Positions 190 through 57,910 are shown, numbered from the whole stretch's first letter. The stretch is 62,472 nucleotides of DNA, filler included, from Candidatus Nanoarchaeia archaeon (GCA_035290625.1; 7 parts of 7 records of this genome joined end to end with filler, not necessarily neighbours in it), one strand, 5' to 3'. The notes: generated by a model from the sequence alone, not told the origin. Numbers and translations: made by a program.

Positions 190-347
190 GGCTTTTGGCG
201 TAGGGAAGGGTGGCATCATTCTGTGAGCATCTTAGGTATAGGAAAGAGCAGCGACAAGGGGGTTGTCCAATTCGGGGAATGTCGCTTTGCAGGGATACAA
301 GCGCATGTGAACTCGATGCCACCCCGAACGAGCCTACGCCAAAAGCC
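190..347 (+). mobile_element. Structured MITE-like repeat R1
   Basis: Perfect 15-bp TIR GGCTTTTGGCGTAGG/CCTACGCCAAAAGCC; inner helix GGGTGGCATC/GATGCCACCC; apical GCGAC-AAGGGGG-TTGTCCAATTCGGGGAAT-GTCGC; flanks TAACACAAA/TAACAATCA (6/9). Confidence 0.75.
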
Positions 348-3710: not shown

Positions 3711-3910
3711 GGCTCAGTAGAAAGTCAGTCGGCATCGGGCTCGCTTGCGCTTGTATTCGAGTATGCTGACACCCCCGACGGTGCTAAAAAGAGCTACGCT
3801 CTTTTGGCACACCAAAACGCCCAAAGGCGTTTTGATTGGGCCAACCCTCCGTCAGCACTGCTCATGACTGCGAAGAAGCTCAGAAAGGATGCCGGAATTT
3901 CTACTGAGCC
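3711..3910 (-). mobile_element. Structured MITE-like repeat R2, carrying a 57-nt insert at 3781-3837
   Basis: TIR GGCTCAGTAGAAA/TTTCTACTGAGCC; helices CGGCATC/GATGCCG and GCTGAC/GTCAGC; same subfamily as R7 and R9; no clear TSD. Confidence 0.8.
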
Positions 3911-7309: not shown

Positions 7310-7509
7310 GGCTCCGGTGAAAATCGGTGCTGCCGCCTCGTTGTGAGCCCTCGAAGTCAAGGGCATCGCAGCGACAAGAGGGTTGCCCCCTTCGGGGAAT
7401 GTCGCTTCCCATGAGAATATGCAGGAGGCGAACCTGGCGGCAGCCGGTGGCTTGTGAGCGAGTGAGAACGAGCTCACTCGCAAGCCACTGCGGGATTTTC
7501 ACCAGAGAC
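7310..7509 (+). mobile_element. Structured MITE-like repeat R3, with an extra hairpin at 7447-7488
   Basis: Outer IR GGCTCCGGTGAAAATC/GATTTTCACCAGAGAC; helix GCTGCCGCC/GGCGGCAGC; apical GCGAC-AAGAGGG-TTG-CCCCCTTCGGGG-AAT-GTCGC. Confidence 0.75.
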
Positions 7510-7630: not shown

Positions 7631-7730
7631 NNNNNNNNNNNNNNNNNNNNNNNNNNNNNNNNNNNNNNNNNNNNTTAATTAATTAANNNNNNNNNNNNNN
7701 NNNNNNNNNNNNNNNNNNNNNNNNNNNNNN
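7631..7730. other. Artificial contig spacer
   Basis: N-run / TTAATTAATTAA (stops in all frames) / N-run. Confidence 0.99.
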
Positions 7731-8663: not shown

Positions 8664-10088
8664 CTAATACCCCTTGCTGAAATAAATCTCAGTAGAAGTC
8701 TCTTTCCCGCAGTGCAGGCATTTCCCTGCCTGGCCTTTCTGGTCAAACGGGATGTTCCTGGATGTGGCTCCGGTCTTCTCCTTGATCCCTGCCTCGCATT
8801 CGATCTTGCCGCAGAAGAGGCCAAGCACCAGTTTCCTTTCATCCAATGCCTTCACAACTTCCTCCCAATTCTGTGGGTGAACAATGCTCTTTGCCATCCT
8901 TTCTTTTGATTTCCTGAGCATAGATTTCTGGATATCCTCAAGGCAGGCTTTAACATAAGAGACAATGTCCTTGCAGGCAACATCCTGTTTTTCTCCAGTA
9001 TCGCGGCGGATGACAACAACACAGTTTTTCTCAATATCCTTCGGCCCAATCTCAATTCTAAGAGGGACACCTTTCATCTCCCATTCATTATATTTCCATC
9101 CCGGGGTATACCCTTTCCGGTCATCAAGCTCAACCTGAAGCCACTTGAGCTTTTTCTGAATGTCTTTTGCTTTTTGCAGAATTGCCTCATCATGCTTGCC
9201 AAACAGGATCGGGATAACCACGCAATGGATGGGAGCAATTGCTGGGGGGATTACGACCCCCTTATCATCGCCATGCTCCATAATAACTGCCCCAATAGTC
9301 CTTGTTGAGATCCCCCAGGAATTCTGGTAAGGAAGATGAGCCTCCTCATCTTTTCCCAAATAGGATATGCCGAAGGCTTTTGCAAAGTTCTGTCCGAGGT
9401 GGTGTGAAGTAGCCATCTGCAGCCCTTTACCGTCAGGCATGAAGGCTTCTACAGACAGCGTGTACTTTGCTCCTGCAAACTTCTCATGCTCAGTCTTTCT
9501 GCCGGCAATCACAGCCACTCCAAGTACTTCTTCGCACAGCTTTTGATATTCCTCAAGATAGAGCCGGGTCTCTTTTGCGCATTCTTCATCAGTCTCATAC
9601 ACGCAATGGCCTTCCTGCCAGAGGAACTCCCTGGTCCGCAGAAATAATTTTGTGGCTTTGGTCTCCCATCTTACAACATTTGCCCACTGGTTGATTCTGA
9701 GGGGAAGATCCCTATAGCTCCGAATCCATCTTGAATACATATCATACATGATTGTTTCTGAGGTTGGACGTATGGCAAGGCGTTCACCTTCTTCACTGTT
9801 CGCAATCCAGGCAACCTCAGGCGCAAACCCCTCTGCATGCTGTGCTTCTTTCTTGAAGAAGGATTCCGGTATGAACAGGGGGAAATAGGCGTTTTTCACT
9901 CCTAGCTTCTTTATCCGCCCGTCAAAATACTGCTGAATATGTTCCCACATCCCATACCCGTGCGGCCTGATCACCATACACCCCTTTACAGGGGAATAAT
10001 CGGCAATCTCGGCCTTGACGATTGCTTGGGGATACCATTCGTCAAGCCTGGACTTTGGGGCAGTGATGCCTATGGCTTTCTCAACCAT
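8664..10088 (-). CDS. proS: Proline--tRNA ligase (archaeal/eukaryotic type)
   Basis: RPTSET, VRWE..TKLFLRTREFLWQEGH, SWGISTR, KGVPLRIEIGPKD; C-terminal Zn site. Confidence 0.98.
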   Translation of the reverse strand: MVEKAIGITAPKSRLDEWYPQAIVKAEIADYSPVKGCMVIRPHGYGMWEHIQQYFDGRIKKLGVKNAYFPLFIPESFFKKEAQHAEGFAPEVAWIANSEEGERLAIRPTSETIMYDMYSRWIRSYRDLPLRINQWANVVRWETKATKLFLRTREFLWQEGHCVYETDEECAKETRLYLEEYQKLCEEVLGVAVIAGRKTEHEKFAGAKYTLSVEAFMPDGKGLQMATSHHLGQNFAKAFGISYLGKDEEAHLPYQNSWGISTRTIGAVIMEHGDDKGVVIPPAIAPIHCVVIPILFGKHDEAILQKAKDIQKKLKWLQVELDDRKGYTPGWKYNEWEMKGVPLRIEIGPKDIEKNCVVVIRRDTGEKQDVACKDIVSYVKACLEDIQKSMLRKSKERMAKSIVHPQNWEEVVKALDERKLVLGLFCGKIECEAGIKEKTGATSRNIPFDQKGQAGKCLHCGKETSTEIYFSKGY

Positions 10089-10133
10089 GCTCTCCTGAGA
10101 TTGTATGAGTTATTTAAAGGTTGCTCATCAAAA

Positions 10134-10291
10134 GGCTGCGTTCAAAATGAAGGTTGCCGTCATTCTTGCGAGCCTCTTCTATATGTATATGTACAGCTGA
10201 CAGGGGGACTTGCCCCCTCGGGGATGTCAGCTTTATTCCTTAGACAGCTCAGGCGAGCCGATGGCAACCCGAAGAGATTTTGAACGCAGTC
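10134..10291 (+). mobile_element. Structured MITE-like repeat R4
   Basis: TIR GGCTGCGTTCAAAAT/ATTTTGAACGCAGTC; flanking direct repeat TCATCAAAA/TCATCAAAG (8/9); full core. Confidence 0.85.
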
Positions 10292-10315
10292 TCATCAAAG
10301 TTTCACACTCTCCTT

Positions 10316-10825
10316 TTATTCAGAAATGATTGTGTACACATACAGAATGATCAATGCCACCAAATACAGAATCAGGAAACTGACCAAGAACGATCCCCAG
10401 TCAATGTACATGCTGGGGGCAATAGCATCAAGATTTGCAACGATGACCGAGACTGGGACAAACCCCCAAATCTGCCTGCAAGACTCTCCCGGCTTGCAGA
10501 GCGGATTGGTGTAGGTTGGAACTCCATGGATAATCGAAAAAACTGCAATGATGAAGATAATCACAAAAAACTTGGCGACAGCAATCCCAAAAAACCTGCG
10601 TAACCTGCCTCGTTTCTCCTTGATTTTCCTGCGCAAGGGCATGATGATGGAAATGAGAAATGCGCATACGGCAATAAGGCTAAGATAGACACCTGCAGAA
10701 TTCACGAGTTCAGCAGAGACCTGGCTTTCAGACTCGATCAGCCCGCTATACAAGCTCAGGCCACTTCCTGCAAGAAAAATCACCAGTGATATGAGGAAAA
10801 GCCTGAACCACGGATGCCTGGCCAT
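10316..10825 (-). CDS. Hypothetical multi-pass membrane protein
   Basis: About 4 hydrophobic segments; start placed at MARHPW, downstream of a TATAAAA box. Confidence 0.65.
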   Translation of the reverse strand: MARHPWFRLFLISLVIFLAGSGLSLYSGLIESESQVSAELVNSAGVYLSLIAVCAFLISIIMPLRRKIKEKRGRLRRFFGIAVAKFFVIIFIIAVFSIIHGVPTYTNPLCKPGESCRQIWGFVPVSVIVANLDAIAPSMYIDWGSFLVSFLILYLVALIILYVYTIISE

Positions 10826-10884
10826 ACACGTTTGATGGTAGACACCCTTTTTATACCTTTTCCCATCATTGGCTCCACCCAAAA

Positions 10885-11005
10885 GGAGGCTGCCATCAAT
10901 TTTGCGAGCCTCTTTACAGCTCTATGCACAGCTGACCGGGGGATGTCCCTACGGGGATGTCAGCTTTGTACCTTGGAAAGTTCAGGCGAGCCGATGGCAG
11001 CCCGA
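10885..11005 (+). repeat. Structured repeat R5 (core only, no clear TIR)
   Basis: GGCTGCCATC/GATGGCAGCC helix, TTTGCGAGC, GCTGAC-CGGGGGATGT-CCCTACGGGG-AT-GTCAGC, GCGAGC; sibling of R4. Confidence 0.8.
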
Positions 11006-11055
11006 TTAAGCCTTTGTAAAGGCATACAGAACTTGTGAAGTTTACTTTACACAAA

Positions 11056-11169
11056 TGAGCCCGCCAGGATTCGAACCCGGATTTGTTGGTATATCCAAGC
11101 AATACCTCCCTTTCGTTCATCGTGATTGCTTACCGAAGCCAACTGTGCTATCCGTTACACCACGGGCCC
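11056..11169 (-). tRNA. tRNA-Arg(TCG) with a 42-nt intron at position 37/38 (11091-11132)
   Basis: GGGCCCG...CGGGCTC acceptor; GTTGG-CTTCGG^...^A-CCAAC anticodon arm; intron stem AAGCAAT/ATTGCTT forming a relaxed BHB; GGTTCGAATCC. Confidence 0.92.
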
Positions 11170-11206
11170 CTATTCAAGAAAAAGAATGCACACTATTTAT
11201 TGCTTT

Positions 11207-12257: not shown

Positions 12258-12438
12258 GGCTGCGTAGAGGTTGGTGCGAAATCCTCGCAATGCTCGGGTT
12301 ACCATCGAGTTCGCACATGGTATCTATATCTGTGATAATCGACATTCGTCCCCGTAAGGGACTTCCCCCTCAACTCAGTTTATGCTTTGCATTCAACAGC
12401 CTCGCGGAAGGGTGGCAACGCCGACTTTCTACAGAGCG
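12258..12438 (-). mobile_element. Structured MITE-like repeat R6 (diverged)
   Basis: Minus strand reads GTTGCCACC-CTTCCGCGAGG...AGGGGGAAGT-CCCTTACGGG...GCGAAC-TC-GATGGTAAC; imperfect GGCTGCGTAGA-type ends; a second GGCTGCGTAGA follows at 12439. Confidence 0.7.
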
Positions 12439-28580: not shown

Positions 28581-28725
28581 GGCTCAGTAGCAAGTCAGTC
28601 GGCATCAGGCTTGCTTGTGCCTGCATCTGCTCCAGCTGACACCCCCGAAGGGGCCTACCCTCTGTCAGCACCGCTCATGACTGCAAAGAAGCTCGCAGAA
28701 AGGATGCCGGACTTGCAACTGAGCC
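28581..28725 (-). mobile_element. Structured MITE-like repeat R7
   Basis: TIR GGCTCAGTAGCAAGTC/GACTTGCAACTGAGCC; flanks TTTGCAGGC/TTCGTAGGC (7/9); full core. Confidence 0.85.
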
Positions 28726-31220: not shown

Positions 31221-31320
31221 NNNNNNNNNNNNNNNNNNNNNNNNNNNNNNNNNNNNNNNNNNNNTTAATTAATTAANNNNNNNNNNNNNNNNNNNNNNNN
31301 NNNNNNNNNNNNNNNNNNNN
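31221..31320. other. Artificial contig spacer
   Basis: N-run / TTAATTAATTAA / N-run. Confidence 0.99.
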
Positions 31321-38140: not shown

Positions 38141-38280
38141 GGCTCTGTCCTGAATGGAGGTTGCCGCCAATTTCGCGAGACTCAATCAAGCGAGACATCA
38201 GCAGCGGAGGGGGGTGTCCCTTACGGGCGAGGTGCCGCTCTTAGCTGAAAACAGCAAGAGCCGAGCTCGCGGCAACCCGA
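38141..38280 (+). mobile_element. Structured MITE-like repeat R8 (3' truncated by the contig end)
   Basis: Left TIR GGCTCTGTCCTGAAT as in R11; GGTTGCCGC/GCGGCAACC; AGCGG-AGGGGGG-TGT-CCCTTACGGG...CCGCT. Confidence 0.8.
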
Positions 38281-38380
38281 NNNNNNNNNNNNNNNNNNNN
38301 NNNNNNNNNNNNNNNNNNNNNNNNTTAATTAATTAANNNNNNNNNNNNNNNNNNNNNNNNNNNNNNNNNNNNNNNNNNNN
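38281..38380. other. Artificial contig spacer
   Basis: N-run / TTAATTAATTAA / N-run. Confidence 0.99.
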
Positions 38381-39722: not shown

Positions 39723-39866
39723 TGCTCAGTAGAAAGTCAATCGGCATCAAGCTCGCTTGTGATTGCATCTGCGATTGCTGACATCCCCGAAGGGGCCTAC
39801 CCCTGTCAGCAGTGGTTATGACTGCGAAGAAGCTCGCAGAAAGGATGCCGGACTTTCTACTGAGCC
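39723..39866 (-). mobile_element. Structured MITE-like repeat R9
   Basis: TIR (T)GCTCAGTAGAAAGTC/GACTTTCTACTGAGCC; flanks CAAAAGACG/CAAAAGAGG (8/9); full core. Confidence 0.85.
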
Positions 39867-43719: not shown

Positions 43720-43883
43720 GGCTGCGTTCAACATCTCGCACAGCTCGGGTGAGCGCCAGGTTCGCCACGCGCATATAGTCTAGCAGAGCGACATATCCCC
43801 GAATGGGACAACCCCCTTGTCGCTGGGGTGTTCTTTGTTTAGTGGCTCACAAAGGGGCGCTCACCTTCATTTCGAACGCAGCC
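43720..43883 (-). mobile_element. Structured MITE-like repeat R10
   Basis: TIR GGCTGCGTTC/GAACGCAGCC; helix GGTGAGCGCC/GGCGCTCACC; flanks AAGAATGATA/AAGAAACATA (8/10). Confidence 0.82.
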
Positions 43884-44450: not shown

Positions 44451-44668
44451 GGCTCTGTCCTGAATGAAGGTTGCCGCCAATTTCGCGAGGCTCAATAAGC
44501 AAATATCATCACAAGCGGAGGGAGTTGCCCCAATCAAAACGCCATCGGGCGTTTTGGTGTGCCAAAAGAGCGTAGCTCTTTTTAGCACCTACGGGCGAGG
44601 TGCCGCTCTTAGCTGAAAACTGCAAGAGCCGAGCTCGCGGCAACCCGGGAGAGATTCAGGACAGAGCC
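44451..44668 (+). mobile_element. Structured MITE-like repeat R11, carrying a 57-nt insert at 44532-44588
   Basis: Perfect 15-bp TIR GGCTCTGTCCTGAAT/ATTCAGGACAGAGCC; sibling of R8 and R12. Confidence 0.85.
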
Positions 44669-46195: not shown

Positions 46196-46313
46196 CGGGC
46201 TGCCGCCAATTTTGCGAGGCTCAATAAGCAAAGATCATCACAAGCGGAGGGGGATGCCCCATCAGGGGTGGTGCCGCTCTTCGCTGAAGACGTGAAGAGC
46301 CGGCGGCAGCCTG
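46196..46313 (+). repeat. Structured repeat R12 (core only)
   Basis: GGCTGCCGCC/GGCGGCAGCC; TTTGCGAGG; AGCGG-AGGGGGATG-CCCCATCAGGGG-TGGTG-CCGCT. Confidence 0.8.
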
Positions 46314-48488: not shown

Positions 48489-48588
48489 NNNNNNNNNNNN
48501 NNNNNNNNNNNNNNNNNNNNNNNNNNNNNNNNTTAATTAATTAANNNNNNNNNNNNNNNNNNNNNNNNNNNNNNNNNNNNNNNNNNNN
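48489..48588. other. Artificial contig spacer
   Basis: N-run / TTAATTAATTAA / N-run. Confidence 0.99.
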
Positions 48589-53576: not shown

Positions 53577-53676
53577 NNNNNNNNNNNNNNNNNNNNNNNN
53601 NNNNNNNNNNNNNNNNNNNNTTAATTAATTAANNNNNNNNNNNNNNNNNNNNNNNNNNNNNNNNNNNNNNNNNNNN
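53577..53676. other. Artificial contig spacer
   Basis: N-run / TTAATTAATTAA / N-run. Confidence 0.99.
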
Positions 53677-57810: not shown

Positions 57811-57910
57811 NNNNNNNNNNNNNNNNNNNNNNNNNNNNNNNNNNNNNNNNNNNNTTAATTAATTAANNNNNNNNNNNNNNNNNNNNNNNNNNNNNNNNNN
57901 NNNNNNNNNN
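57811..57910. other. Artificial contig spacer
   Basis: N-run / TTAATTAATTAA / N-run. Confidence 0.99.

What the first reader, a model, noticed from the sequence alone, without database searches (positions are those of the whole stretch)
10134..10291. Two length-constrained variable segments in each copy resemble a programmable guide loop
Seen: the segments on either side of the upper helix are mostly 20-25 nt but differ in sequence. R1: ATCTTAGGTATAGGAAAGAGCA / TTTGCAGGGATACAAGCGCAT. R4: CTCTTCTATATGTATATGTACA / TTTATTCCTTAGACAGCTCAG. R7: TTCTTTGCAGTCATGAGCGGT / TGGAGCAGATGCAGGCACAA. R10: CACTAAACAAAGAACACCCC / CTGCTAGACTATATGCGCGTG. They do not pair well with each other, and they diverge faster than the scaffold even between siblings (R4/R5, R2/R7/R9). 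Established: a fixed scaffold with a bipartite variable loop is the layout of H/ACA sRNAs and IS110 bridge RNAs. Inference (speculative): these are guide or spacer segments for an unidentified effector; they could equally be neutral fixed-length spacers between protein-binding sites.
Basis: inference. Interest (0 to 1): 0.72.

Follow-up and report, generated by a model that had tools for sequence, protein, structure and literature searches.

The report
Variable loops in archaeal hairpin transposon
The two "variable segments" are the unpaired sides of a large internal loop in a small hairpin-shaped jumping-DNA element that fills this tiny groundwater archaeon's genome, and nothing indicates that they act as programmable guides.

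Summary
Window 10134-10291 is one of 12 copies in the window, and about 181 in the 1.37-Mb genome, of a hairpin element with two roughly 19-nt, poorly conserved segments around a conserved upper hairpin. The segments do not pair with each other.

The element is a MITE. It has terminal inverted repeats, 9-bp target duplications, and a landing site about 15 nt upstream of TATA boxes. Earlier agents of this scan found the same family on other DNA.

New here:
- The 120-nt structured core, both variable loops included, also sits inside a full-length IS5-family insertion sequence from a metagenome.
- The core occurs in 28 of 101 genomes of the order, with loop lengths held at 17-20 nt while loop sequence is randomised.

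Guide tests were negative. I searched the masked genome, rRNA, tRNA, the element's own flanks and its own ends, and found no excess of strong matches over shuffled or permuted controls. No IS110 or TnpB gene was found in the genome. Rfam gave no match.

Loop identity decays smoothly with scaffold identity, and the loops are 2-8 times more diverse than the scaffold. This fits relaxed constraint on sequence with constraint on length.

Verdict: these are fixed-length spacer loops of a structured transposon module, not guides. Whether the fold acts as RNA or as DNA is open.

The parts
10125..10133 (.). Left copy of the target-site duplication (TCATCAAAA)
   Evidence: It matches 10292-10300 at 8 of 9 positions.
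10134..10149 (+). Left terminal inverted repeat (GGCTGCGTTCAAAATG)
   Evidence: It is complementary to 10276-10291 at 13 of 14 positions scored. Subfamilies carry different but self-matching repeats.
10152..10161 (+). Stem 2, 5' strand (GGTTGCCGTC); it pairs with 10260-10269
   Evidence: 7 of its 10 pairs show changes on both sides in alignment A1, and 8 of 10 in the cross-genome alignment A2.
10168..10175 (+). GC + tandem GA + 4-bp helix (GCGAGCCT); it pairs with 10251-10258 (AGGCGAGC)
   Evidence: G.A is kept in 155 of 160 copies and A.G in 157 of 160. Flanking pairs covary: CG 93 / GC 60; CG 104 / TA 35 / AT 13; CG 78 / TA 69 / TG 9.
10176..10194 (+). Variable segment V1 (19 nt), 5' side of the internal loop
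   Evidence: Low column information. Length is 18-19 nt in 74 of 114 copies. Diversity is 0.30.
10195..10232 (+). Conserved upper hairpin: 8-bp helix (10195-10202 with 10225-10232) around a G-run/C-run apex with a UNCG-type loop (10203-10224)
   Evidence: 7 of the 8 helix pairs show changes on both sides. Apex sequences are listed.
10233..10250 (+). Variable segment V2 (18 nt), 3' side of the internal loop
   Evidence: Low column information. Length is 17-19 nt in 69 of 114 copies. Diversity is 0.31.
10251..10269 (+). 3' strands of the 4-bp helix, tandem GA, GC pair and stem 2 (AGGC GA GC C GATGGCAACC)
10276..10291 (+). Right terminal inverted repeat (GATTTTGAACGCAGTC)
10292..10300 (.). Right copy of the target-site duplication (TCATCAAAG)
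10113..10118 (-). TATA-like hexamer (TTTAAA) 15 nt from the element's left end. It lies upstream of the minus-strand ORF 8664-10088.
   Evidence: 78 of 115 elements have such a hexamer starting 13-19 nt from one end, against 3.9% per 7-nt background window. ORF.
207..325 (+).
   Evidence: Covariance model R1, 97.5 bits.
3726..3898 (-). Other copy, with an extra insertion in the apex
   Evidence: R1, 58.7 bits.
7327..7446 (+). Other copy
   Evidence: R1, 95.9 bits.
10887..11003 (+). Other copy (sibling R5)
   Evidence: R1, 91 bits.
12296..12421 (-). Other copy, chimeric between two subfamilies
   Evidence: R1, 43.8 bits. Segmentation.
28596..28713 (-).
   Evidence: R1, 76.6 bits.
38158..38278 (+). 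Other copy, at a contig end
   Evidence: R1, 75.5 bits. The contig break is shown.
39742..39854 (-). Other copy
   Evidence: R1, 85.5 bits.
43747..43866 (-).
   Evidence: R1, 99.8 bits.
44468..44646 (+). Other copy, with an apex insertion
   Evidence: R1, 62.3 bits.
46197..46312 (+). Other copy
   Evidence: R1, 61.4 bits.

Best explanation

**Layout.** Between its terminal inverted repeats it carries a roughly 120-nt fold-back module:
- a 10-bp stem;
- a small U-rich bulge;
- a short helix containing a conserved tandem G.A/A.G;
- a large, nearly symmetric internal loop;
- a 7-8-bp upper helix;
- a G/C-rich apex.

**What the segments are.** Selection on the element family keeps the helices (by compensatory change), the tandem GA and the apex. 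It also keeps the loop's size (about 18-19 nt per side), its AT-richness and its failure to pair. The loop sequence itself is almost free and drifts by point substitution. The loops therefore work as fixed-length spacers that set the distance and geometry between the lower helix and the upper hairpin. They do not act as guides that read a target.

**Shown:** MITE identity, the fold and its covariation, the loop statistics, the lack of targets, and the presence of the module in an autonomous insertion sequence.

**Inferred:** that the folded single strand (RNA or DNA; undecided) is what selection sees, and that loop length matters for its shape.
For: **MITE identity.**
- Terminal inverted repeats plus a 9-bp duplication (at least 8 of 9 matching) were found in 33 of 163 copies under strict settings; 19 are perfect.
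- There are 181 copies of 136-241 nt.
- 78 of 115 have a TATA-like hexamer 13-19 nt from one end, against a 3.9% background. Of the 82 sides with such a hexamer, 73 have an ORF reading away from the element.

**Autonomous partner.**
- Insertion sequences of 0.9-1.2 kb with GGCT/GGTT termini and 9-bp duplications occur in relatives.
- Metagenome locus L077 is a 1240-bp insertion sequence with the repeat GGCTTCATCC... and a 316-aa DDE_Tnp_1 / IS5-family-like transposase.
- Inside L077, after the transposase gene, lies the whole module with 18-nt loops on both sides. The covariance model scores it at 91 bits, E = 1e-18.

**Fold.**
- In 41 copies less than 82% alike, 81.2% of cells pair, against 68.3 +/- 0.8% in shuffles (0 of 500 reach it). 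Slid registers pair at most 41%. 21 of 27 pairs show changes on both sides.
- In 23 distinct copies from other genomes, 88.3% pair against 69.7%, and the covariation score is 0.56 against 0.22 (this alignment is fitted to the model).
- The tandem GA is kept in 155-157 of 160 copies.

**Loops.**
- They do not pair with each other.
- They are 54-57% AT, against 37% in the scaffold.
- Loop identity falls smoothly as scaffold identity falls: scaffold 0.96 gives about 0.70, 0.92 gives 0.66, 0.87 gives 0.58, and 0.8 or lower gives about 0.44-0.50. Shuffled V1 pairs give 0.43.
- Diversity is 0.30-0.31 in the loops against 0.04-0.13 in the scaffold. Singleton alleles per column are 0.44-0.56 against 0.13-0.24.
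- In other genomes V1 and V2 are each 17-20 nt and the whole module is 117-124 nt. Loop columns are there 32.5% identical, against 64.7% for scaffold columns.

**No targets.**
- Masked genome, 201 loop sequences against 20 shuffle sets: hits of 30 bits or more, 6 against 3.75 +/- 1.6; hits of 32 bits or more, 1 against 1.25.
- rRNA and tRNA show no excess.
- The element's own ends plus duplication: 5.25 against 5.16 +/- 0.09.
Against: - Length constancy across genomes shows that the loops are not simply junk. Something measures them, and I cannot say what.
- Part of that constancy among covariance-model matches is selection by the model. Inside this genome, two subfamilies have other loop sizes (about 22/23 nt and about 20/12 nt).
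- Small unexplained shifts exist. The mean best BLAST score of real loops is 24.52 bits against 24.19 +/- 0.10 for shuffles. The mean longest common substring with own flanks is 6.60 against 6.22 +/- 0.10. Both may come from word usage or from neighbouring element fragments.
- Targets outside this genome (host, viruses) were barely tested: two exact-match scans.
- Only 1 of the 29 full-length insertion-sequence copies found among 80 metagenome loci carries the module.
- This genome holds no matching transposase.
- Whether the fold is RNA or DNA is undecided. On the sequence-only alignment, G.U pairs outnumber A.C mismatches 60 to 33. On the cross-genome alignment the count is only 24 to 18.
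Confidence: 0.7

Rival explanations
1. The two loops are guide or spacer segments of a transcribed RNA. They base-pair with a target (rRNA, mRNA, virus, or the element's own donor and target DNA) for an unidentified effector, as in H/ACA sRNAs or IS110 bridge RNAs.
For: - The layout is a conserved scaffold around two unpaired loops of fixed length.
- On this genome's copies both loops are A-rich on the same strand: A 36%, T 18-21%.
- H/ACA protein Nop10 is encoded in the genome.
- One exact 19-nt match of R4's V1 lies in a viral contig.
Against: - There is no excess of strong matches to the masked genome, rRNA, tRNA, own flanks or own ends over controls.
- Siblings differ at about 30% of loop positions by point changes, which would destroy a guide.
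- The loops also exist in the autonomous DDE insertion sequence.
- No IS110 or TnpB gene was found in the genome.
- Module orientation relative to the neighbouring promoter is random: 37 left against 31 right.
- There is no ACA box and no K-turn in the upper stem, and the loops are twice the size of a pseudouridylation pocket. There is no Rfam match.
- The viral match is an AT-rich low-complexity 19-mer with no scaffold beside it. By my rough estimate this is about what chance would give in a collection of that size. A 22-nt loop from another subfamily had no match.
- In other genomes V1 is T-rich rather than A-rich.
Confidence: 0.04
2. The element acts as double-stranded DNA. The conserved blocks are binding sites for a protein (transposase or host factor), and the two segments are spacers whose length keeps the sites in helical phase.
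For: - Loop sequence is free but length is fixed.
- From the end of the left 4-bp helix to the start of the right one is about 74 bp in R4 (19+8+22+8+18 = 75), close to seven helical turns.
- The motif GCGAGCC stands as a direct repeat on both arms of R4.
- Transposition by a DDE enzyme needs only DNA.
Against: - The helices vary freely in sequence while staying complementary. For example, the 4-bp helix occurs as GGCT/AGCC, GCTT/AAGC, GCCT/AGGC, GCCA/TGGC, GCAA/TTGC and GGTC/GACC. This is the signature of base pairing, not of a site read by sequence.
- A mismatch pair (tandem G.A) is conserved in 155-157 of 160 copies. A symmetric duplex site would not need it.
Confidence: 0.15
3. The segments hold ordinary cis signals, such as an internal TATA-box promoter (for example for an RNA antisense to the transposase gene) or an oligo-T terminator for the transposase gene on the opposite strand.
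For: - The loops are AT-rich.
- In L077 the complement of V2 carries a run of seven T just downstream of the transposase gene.
- Some V1 sequences start with TTAAA/TTATAA-like words.
Against: - TATA-like hexamers occur in 6.1% of 99 V1 sequences, against 3.6 +/- 1.8% in shuffles (64 of 500 shuffles reach it). V2 and the other genomes are at shuffle level.
- Runs of 5 or more A or T: in V1, 5 (A) and 1 (T) of 99; in V2, 2 (A) and 1 (T) of 102.
Confidence: 0.04

Closest known systems
MITEs derived from IS5-family insertion sequences. Earlier agents of this scan named the IS903 group.
   Same: - Terminal inverted repeats beginning GGCT, 9-bp target duplications, no ORF, and high copy number.
- An autonomous relative with the same ends and a DDE_Tnp_1 transposase. 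Its best NCBIfam match is an IS5-family model, and its best annotated plasmid relatives are 'IS5 family transposase' at 25-30% identity.
   Different: - The inner 120 nt are better conserved than the terminal repeats, across subfamilies with different ends.
- The inner part keeps an elaborate fold by compensatory change.
- The family lands at a fixed distance from TATA boxes.
- Assignment to the IS903 group itself was not tested here. That IS903 makes 9-bp duplications and has GGC termini is recalled, not computed.
Correia elements (NEMIS) of Neisseria and enterobacterial ERIC/IRU repeats (recalled from general knowledge; no call)
   Same: Abundant intergenic 100-160-bp elements with terminal inverted repeats. 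They fold into long hairpins when transcribed and sit next to genes.
   Different: Those are bacterial and have other ends and target sites. To my knowledge they do not show a conserved module with two length-fixed, sequence-free loops. I made no sequence comparison.
Archaeal H/ACA guide sRNAs
   Same: A hairpin with a two-sided internal loop between a lower and an upper helix. The H/ACA protein Nop10 is encoded in this genome.
   Different: - No ACA box follows the lower helix.
- The loops are about 19 + 18 nt, not the short pocket of an H/ACA RNA.
- The upper stem has no K-turn or K-loop; the tandem GA lies below the loop and has no 3-nt bulge.
- There is no rRNA complementarity above shuffles.
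- There is no Rfam match.
- The sequence is a transposon with inverted repeats and target duplications.
IS110-family bridge RNAs
   Same: A structured non-coding part of a mobile element with internal loops.
   Different: - The partner enzyme here is a DDE_Tnp_1 / IS5-family-like transposase, not a DEDD/IS110 recombinase. None was found in the genome.
- The loops are not complementary to the element's ends or target.
- The element has inverted repeats and 9-bp duplications.

Membership tests
MITE (non-autonomous derivative of an insertion sequence) | Terminal inverted repeats | tested here: met
   At least 12 of 14 complementary terminal bases in 115 of 163 segmented copies. R4 scores 13 of 14.
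MITE (non-autonomous derivative of an insertion sequence) | Target-site duplication of fixed length | tested here: met
   A 9-bp duplication with at least 8 of 9 matches in 33 of 163 copies under strict settings, 19 of them perfect. With looser boundary calls the figure is 28 of 115. The remaining copies are unresolved, partly because my boundary calls are off by a base or two.
MITE (non-autonomous derivative of an insertion sequence) | Small, non-coding, many copies | tested here: met
   136-241 nt. 181 copies, 1.86% of the genome.
MITE (non-autonomous derivative of an insertion sequence) | Autonomous element with the same ends | tested here: met
   L011 and L077 carry GGCTTCATCCAATAAT..., against GGCTYCATCCAAAAAAT in one MITE subfamily here. 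L077 also carries the inner module. None was found in this genome itself.
IS5 family (partner transposase) | DDE_Tnp_1 transposase related to IS5-family models | tested here: met
   PF01609 at E = 2e-20 to 6e-20, above its cut-off. NF033579 (IS5 family) at E = 3e-26 to 3e-27 over nearly the whole profile, but below NCBI's curated cut-off: 92-96 against 140 bits. Plasmid relatives are annotated 'IS5 family transposase' at 25-30% identity.
IS903 group of the IS5 family | Closer to IS903 than to other IS5 groups | not tested
   Only the 9-bp duplication and GGCT termini fit, and the group's properties are recalled from memory. I made no comparison with an IS903 sequence.
Archaeal H/ACA sRNA | ACA box 3' of the hairpin, about 14-16 nt from the pocket | tested here: not met
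   The conserved columns after the lower helix read GARC, then the stem 2 strand. No ACA is conserved.
Archaeal H/ACA sRNA | K-turn or K-loop in the upper stem | tested here: not met
   The upper stem is a regular 7-8-bp helix capped by a G/C apex. The tandem GA lies below the loop, inside a continuous helix with no 3-nt bulge.
Archaeal H/ACA sRNA | Loop strands complementary to rRNA or tRNA around a target U | tested here: not met
   Longest Watson-Crick runs, real against shuffled: SSU 6.69 vs 6.77; LSU 7.29 vs 7.21; tRNA 6.57 vs 6.61. I did not run a dedicated bipartite pocket search.
IS110 bridge RNA | Encoded beside a DEDD (IS110) recombinase | tested here: not met
   PF01548 has no match in the genome. 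The insertion sequence carrying the module encodes DDE_Tnp_1.
IS110 bridge RNA | Loops complementary to target and donor ends | tested here: not met
   Own ends plus duplication: 5.25 against 5.16 +/- 0.09. Own flanks with matches of 8 nt or more: 15, against 5-20 in permutations.
TnpB/IscB omega RNA | Adjacent TnpB/IscB gene | tested here: not met
   PF07282 has no match in the genome.
REP/REPIN (RAYT-mobilised palindromes) | No terminal inverted repeats or duplications; Y1 (RAYT) transposase partner | tested here: not met
   Inverted repeats and 9-bp duplications are present. I did not search for a RAYT gene.

The most novel reading that the evidence does not exclude
The conserved rod with its two length-measured, sequence-free loops is a shape-specific recognition platform, as single-stranded DNA or as RNA. 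The IS5-like transposase or a host factor reads it, and this ties the element family to its exact landing site about 15 nt upstream of archaeal TATA boxes. In that case the loops are a molecular ruler in a structure-guided transposition system, not spacers of no consequence.
Probability: 0.12. Interest if true: 0.7.

Novelty: new variant of a known kind. Interest (0 to 1): 0.33.

Why it matters
The guide-RNA idea, which would have been the exciting outcome, does not hold, so the finding as stated is ordinary.

What remains of interest is the element itself:
- It is a transposon family that makes up almost 2% of a 1.37-Mb DPANN genome.
- It is spread over at least 28 of 101 sampled genomes of the order.
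- Its inner 120 nt are held in a precise fold, with loop sizes fixed while loop sequence is free.
- The family lands next to promoters.

Why a DDE transposon keeps such a fold is unknown and could be tested at the bench.

A published census noted that a Woesearchaeal genome has one of the highest MITE densities among archaea (PMC11602168; I read the passages found by term search). My three literature searches listed no paper that describes the module or its loops.

Tried and rejected
- **RNA evidence.** No RNA holder was listed for window 8700-11200. I laid no reads.
- **RNAalifold on the MAFFT alignment A1** returned no structure. I then wrote the structure by hand from R4's fold and counted pairs.
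- **G.U against A.C strand test on the nhmmer alignment** was swamped by misaligned columns. On A1 it gives 60 against 33, and on A2 24 against 18. This is too weak to name the folded strand.
- **UNCG-type loops as a sign of RNA.** I rejected this as decisive, because an optional nested hairpin has its UUCG-type loop on the opposite strand.
- **K-turn reading of the tandem GA.** Rejected: two Watson-Crick pairs, not a 3-nt bulge, separate it from the bulge.
- **Loops as degenerate helix.** Rejected.
- **Block replacement of loops as in CRISPR.** Mostly rejected, because intermediates differing by 1-4 point changes exist. A few siblings do share one loop and differ wholly in the other, which looks like recombination at the conserved hairpin.
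- **Parent element in this genome.** The only DDE_Tnp_1 gene is a 516-aa transposase on contig C61 with unrelated ends.
- **30 transposase loci from relatives.** nhmmer found no module in any of them; the covariance model, run on 20 of them, also found none.
- **Co-occurrence of the module with any PF01609 gene in 100 relatives.** 13 of 27 module-positive genomes against 24 of 73 module-negative ones. The association is weak, the family is broad, and the genomes are related.
- **First target search.** Its top three hits were unmasked pieces of split elements. I repeated it with wider masking.
- **First tRNA test.** It included two false ARAGORN tRNAs with kilobase 'introns' that overlap elements. 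I repeated it without them.

Full report
**Setting**

The window is a chain of contigs from a 1.37-Mb, 84-contig genome bin, joined by N linkers. A tRNA gene with a 45-nt intron and the archaeal rRNA models show that the organism is an archaeon. Earlier notes of this scan call it a groundwater DPANN/Woesearchaeota-type organism. I did not test that name.

**Observation**

The span 10134-10291 folds into a long hairpin:
- plus strand: -71.0 kcal/mol, z = -5.5, and none of 200 shuffles fold as well;
- minus strand: -62.9 kcal/mol, z = -3.4.

Iterated nhmmer finds 193 hits, merged to 181 elements, or 1.86% of the genome. A covariance model finds 12 copies in the window.

Column information is high in a scaffold and near zero in two stretches on either side of a conserved upper hairpin. 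In R4 these stretches are 10176-10194 (19 nt) and 10233-10250 (18 nt).

Of 163 copies that I could segment, 114 passed length filters. The 49 dropped copies have apex insertions or were mis-parsed. Among the 114:
- V1 is 18-19 nt in 74;
- V2 is 17-19 nt in 69.

The two segments do not pair. Cognate duplexes (-3.83 kcal/mol) are no better than non-cognate ones (-3.97) or shuffles (mean z = -0.02).

**What the element is**

- *Ends.* Copies end in inverted repeats that begin GGCT and are flanked by 9-bp direct repeats. With strict settings, 33 of 163 copies show at least 8 of 9 matching, and 19 are perfect. R4 has TCATCAAAA / TCATCAAAG.
- *Subfamilies.* They carry different terminal repeats but share the inner core.
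- *Landing site.* 78 of 115 copies with resolved ends have a TATA-like hexamer starting 13-19 nt from one end: 37 on the left only, 31 on the right only, 10 on both. The background is 3.9% per 7-nt window. Of the 82 sides with such a hexamer, 73 have an ORF of at least 80 codons reading away from the element, against 51 of the 136 sides without one.
- *Verdict.* This is a MITE that lands just upstream of promoters, in either orientation. It agrees with earlier agents of this scan, and I re-derived it here.

**The partner element**

- This genome has only one DDE_Tnp_1 gene, a 516-aa transposase with unrelated ends.
- Relatives in the same order hold 0.9-1.2-kb insertion sequences with GGCT/GGTT ends and 9-bp duplications. 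One of them, L011, has ends almost identical to those of one MITE subfamily here.
- Its 316-aa transposase (P0001) brought in 80 metagenome loci. Among these I found 29 full-length copies with both ends.
- One, L077 (a 1240-bp element), carries the complete MITE core between the transposase stop codon and the right end, on the strand opposite to the gene. The core has stem 2, GCGAG, the helix GCAT/ATGC, an 18-nt V1, the upper hairpin and an 18-nt V2. The covariance model scores it at 91 bits, E = 1e-18.
- The other copies have different structured or AT-rich sequences at that place.
- The transposases match PF01609 above its cut-off. They match an NCBI IS5-family model at E = 3e-26 to 3e-27, below its curated cut-off. 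Annotated plasmid relatives are 'IS5 family transposase' at 25-30% identity.

So the variable loops are part of a module that an autonomous DDE element also carries. They are not set copy by copy.

**The fold**

*Copies from this genome.* On a sequence-only alignment of 41 copies less than 82% alike:
- my hand-written structure pairs 81.2% of cells, against 68.3 +/- 0.8% in shuffles (0 of 500 reach it);
- slid registers pair at most 41%;
- 21 of 27 pairs show changes on both sides.

*Copies from elsewhere.* On 23 distinct copies from other genomes and L077:
- 88.3% of cells pair, against 69.7% in shuffles;
- the covariation score is 0.56 against 0.22 (this alignment is fitted to the model).

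*Conserved mismatch.* A tandem G.A/A.G is kept in 155 and 157 of 160 copies. It sits inside a helix whose neighbouring pairs covary. On both strands its context is 5'-YGAR-3', which I recall as the favoured context for sheared tandem GA pairs.

The free choice of helix sequence together with a conserved mismatch argues that a folded single strand is under selection. It argues against a duplex site read by sequence.

*Which strand, and RNA or DNA?* I could not settle this:
- G.U pairs outnumber A.C mismatches 60 to 33 on the unbiased alignment, but only 24 to 18 across genomes;
- tetraloop arguments cut both ways;
- no RNA data were available.

**How the loops evolve**

Loop identity falls smoothly with scaffold identity:

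| Scaffold identity | Loop identity |
|---|---|
| 0.995 | about 0.90 |
| 0.96 | about 0.70 |
| 0.92 | 0.66 |
| 0.87 | 0.58 |
| 0.8 or lower | 0.44-0.50 (shuffled V1 pairs: 0.43) |

Within 7 subfamily clusters (63 sequences):

| Region | Nucleotide diversity |
|---|---|
| V1 and V2 | 0.30-0.31 |
| Apex and outer parts | 0.13 |
| Upper helix | 0.09 |
| GA motif | 0.06 |
| 4-bp helix | 0.04 |

Singleton alleles per column are 0.44-0.56 in the loops and 0.13-0.24 elsewhere. Siblings show series of loops that differ by one to a few point changes.

This is what relaxed constraint beside a constrained scaffold produces. No special diversifying process is needed.

Length is a different matter. In copies from other genomes V1 and V2 are each 17-20 nt and the core is 117-124 nt. 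Loop columns there are only 32.5% identical, against 64.7% for scaffold columns. Part of this constancy is selection by the model. Two subfamilies in this genome have other sizes.

The loops are 54-57% AT, against 37% in the scaffold.

**Guide tests**

| Test (call) | Real | Control |
|---|---|---|
| 201 distinct loops against the genome with all elements masked +/-130 nt; 20 dinucleotide shuffle sets (38) | hits of 30 bits or more: 6; of 32 bits or more: 1; mean best score 24.52 | 3.75 +/- 1.6; 1.25; 24.19 +/- 0.10 |
| Longest Watson-Crick run against SSU rRNA (39) | 6.69 | 6.77 |
| Longest Watson-Crick run against LSU rRNA (39) | 7.29 | 7.21 |
| Longest Watson-Crick run against 17 tRNAs (41) | 6.57 | 6.61 |
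| Longest common substring with own flanks (41) | 6.60; 15 with 8 nt or more | 6.22 +/- 0.10; 5-20 in permutations |
| Own terminal repeats plus duplication, 80 elements (81) | 5.25 | 5.16 +/- 0.09 |

- The small shift in mean best score on the masked genome has no tail of strong hits.
- TATA-like words and homopolymer runs in the loops are at shuffle level.
- No IS110 or TnpB gene was found in the genome. Nop10 is present.
- Rfam gives nothing for the element, even at E up to 5.
- Two exact-match scans of viral contigs gave one AT-rich 19-mer match without any scaffold beside it, and no match for a 22-mer.

**Distribution and literature**

The covariance model finds full-length cores in 28 of 101 genomes of the order, counting this one.

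A census paper reports that a Woesearchaeal genome has one of the highest MITE densities in archaea (PMC11602168, passages read). A 2026 survey of archaeal insertion sequences mentions MITEs only in passing (PMC13343696, passages read). My three searches listed no paper that describes this module.

**Conclusion**

The two segments are the sides of a large, AT-rich, non-pairing internal loop in a structured module. That module is carried by an IS5-family insertion sequence and by its many MITE derivatives. Their sequence drifts while their length is held.

The guide-loop reading is not supported.

Two questions stay open: why a DDE transposon keeps this fold, and whether the fold works as RNA or as single-stranded DNA.

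Noticed in passing
window 7631-7730, 31221-31320, 38281-38380, 48489-48584, 53577-53672, 57811-57910 (approximate): The window is several contigs joined by N runs around TTAATTAATTAA. The repeat finder reports these linkers as an 18-copy 'repeat' (family D1).
   Followed up: yes
window 11056-11169 (-): A tRNA gene with a 45-nt intron. Rfam finds it (48.8 bits), but ARAGORN with default settings misses it. It lies about 50 nt from element copy R5.
   Followed up: partly
window 3726-3898 (-) and 44468-44646 (+); also G000 contigs C1, C6, C7, C59: Some copies carry an extra insertion of about 57 nt in the apex (AATCAAAACGCC...GGCGTTTTGG...). It is itself a pair of hairpins, so the module accepts nested modules.
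   Followed up: no
G000 C43:44395-44648, C27:1324-1578, C14:15045-15298, C51:64290-64542, C49:11638-11887, C55:7290-7542, C69:10023-10276: An optional two-hairpin cassette of about 45 nt (GCTCCGAAGGAGC...CAAAAATG....CATTTTTG) is inserted in the right arm, between the GA motif and stem 2. Its UUCG-type loop is on the opposite strand to that of the main apex.
   Followed up: no
window 12296-12421 (-): A chimeric copy: the left half belongs to the GTTGAG subfamily and the right half to the ATCGAC subfamily, joined at the central hairpin. In the largest subfamily, some siblings share an identical V2 but have quite different V1. Both point to recombination between copies at the conserved hairpin.
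   Followed up: partly
L069 and L100 (metagenome insertion-sequence copies), hairpin about 70-100 nt from the right end: Two near-identical insertion-sequence copies differ by inversion of a 9-nt hairpin loop (GCTTCGCAA against TTGCGAAGC) between identical stems.
   Followed up: no
G000 contig C61 (L001:271-1821): A 516-aa DDE_Tnp_1 transposase with its own inverted repeats (...TTGACAAAGTG...), on a low-GC 2.3-kb contig. It is the only transposase of that family in the bin and is unrelated to the MITEs.
   Followed up: partly
G000 C34:7997-10881 and C68:22376-23119: With introns allowed, ARAGORN calls two 'tRNAs' with introns of 2.8 kb and 0.65 kb. The first spans MITE copies, and both look like false calls.
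   Followed up: partly
G000 C78:3781-3918 and C46:31256-31393: Two separate Nop10-like ORFs (59 and 55 bits) in a 1.37-Mb genome.
   Followed up: no
L188 (IMGVR_UViG_3300005662_003950:14488-14806): An exact 19-nt match to R4's V1 in a very AT-rich viral contig, with no element scaffold nearby. It is probably a chance match of a low-complexity word.
   Followed up: partly
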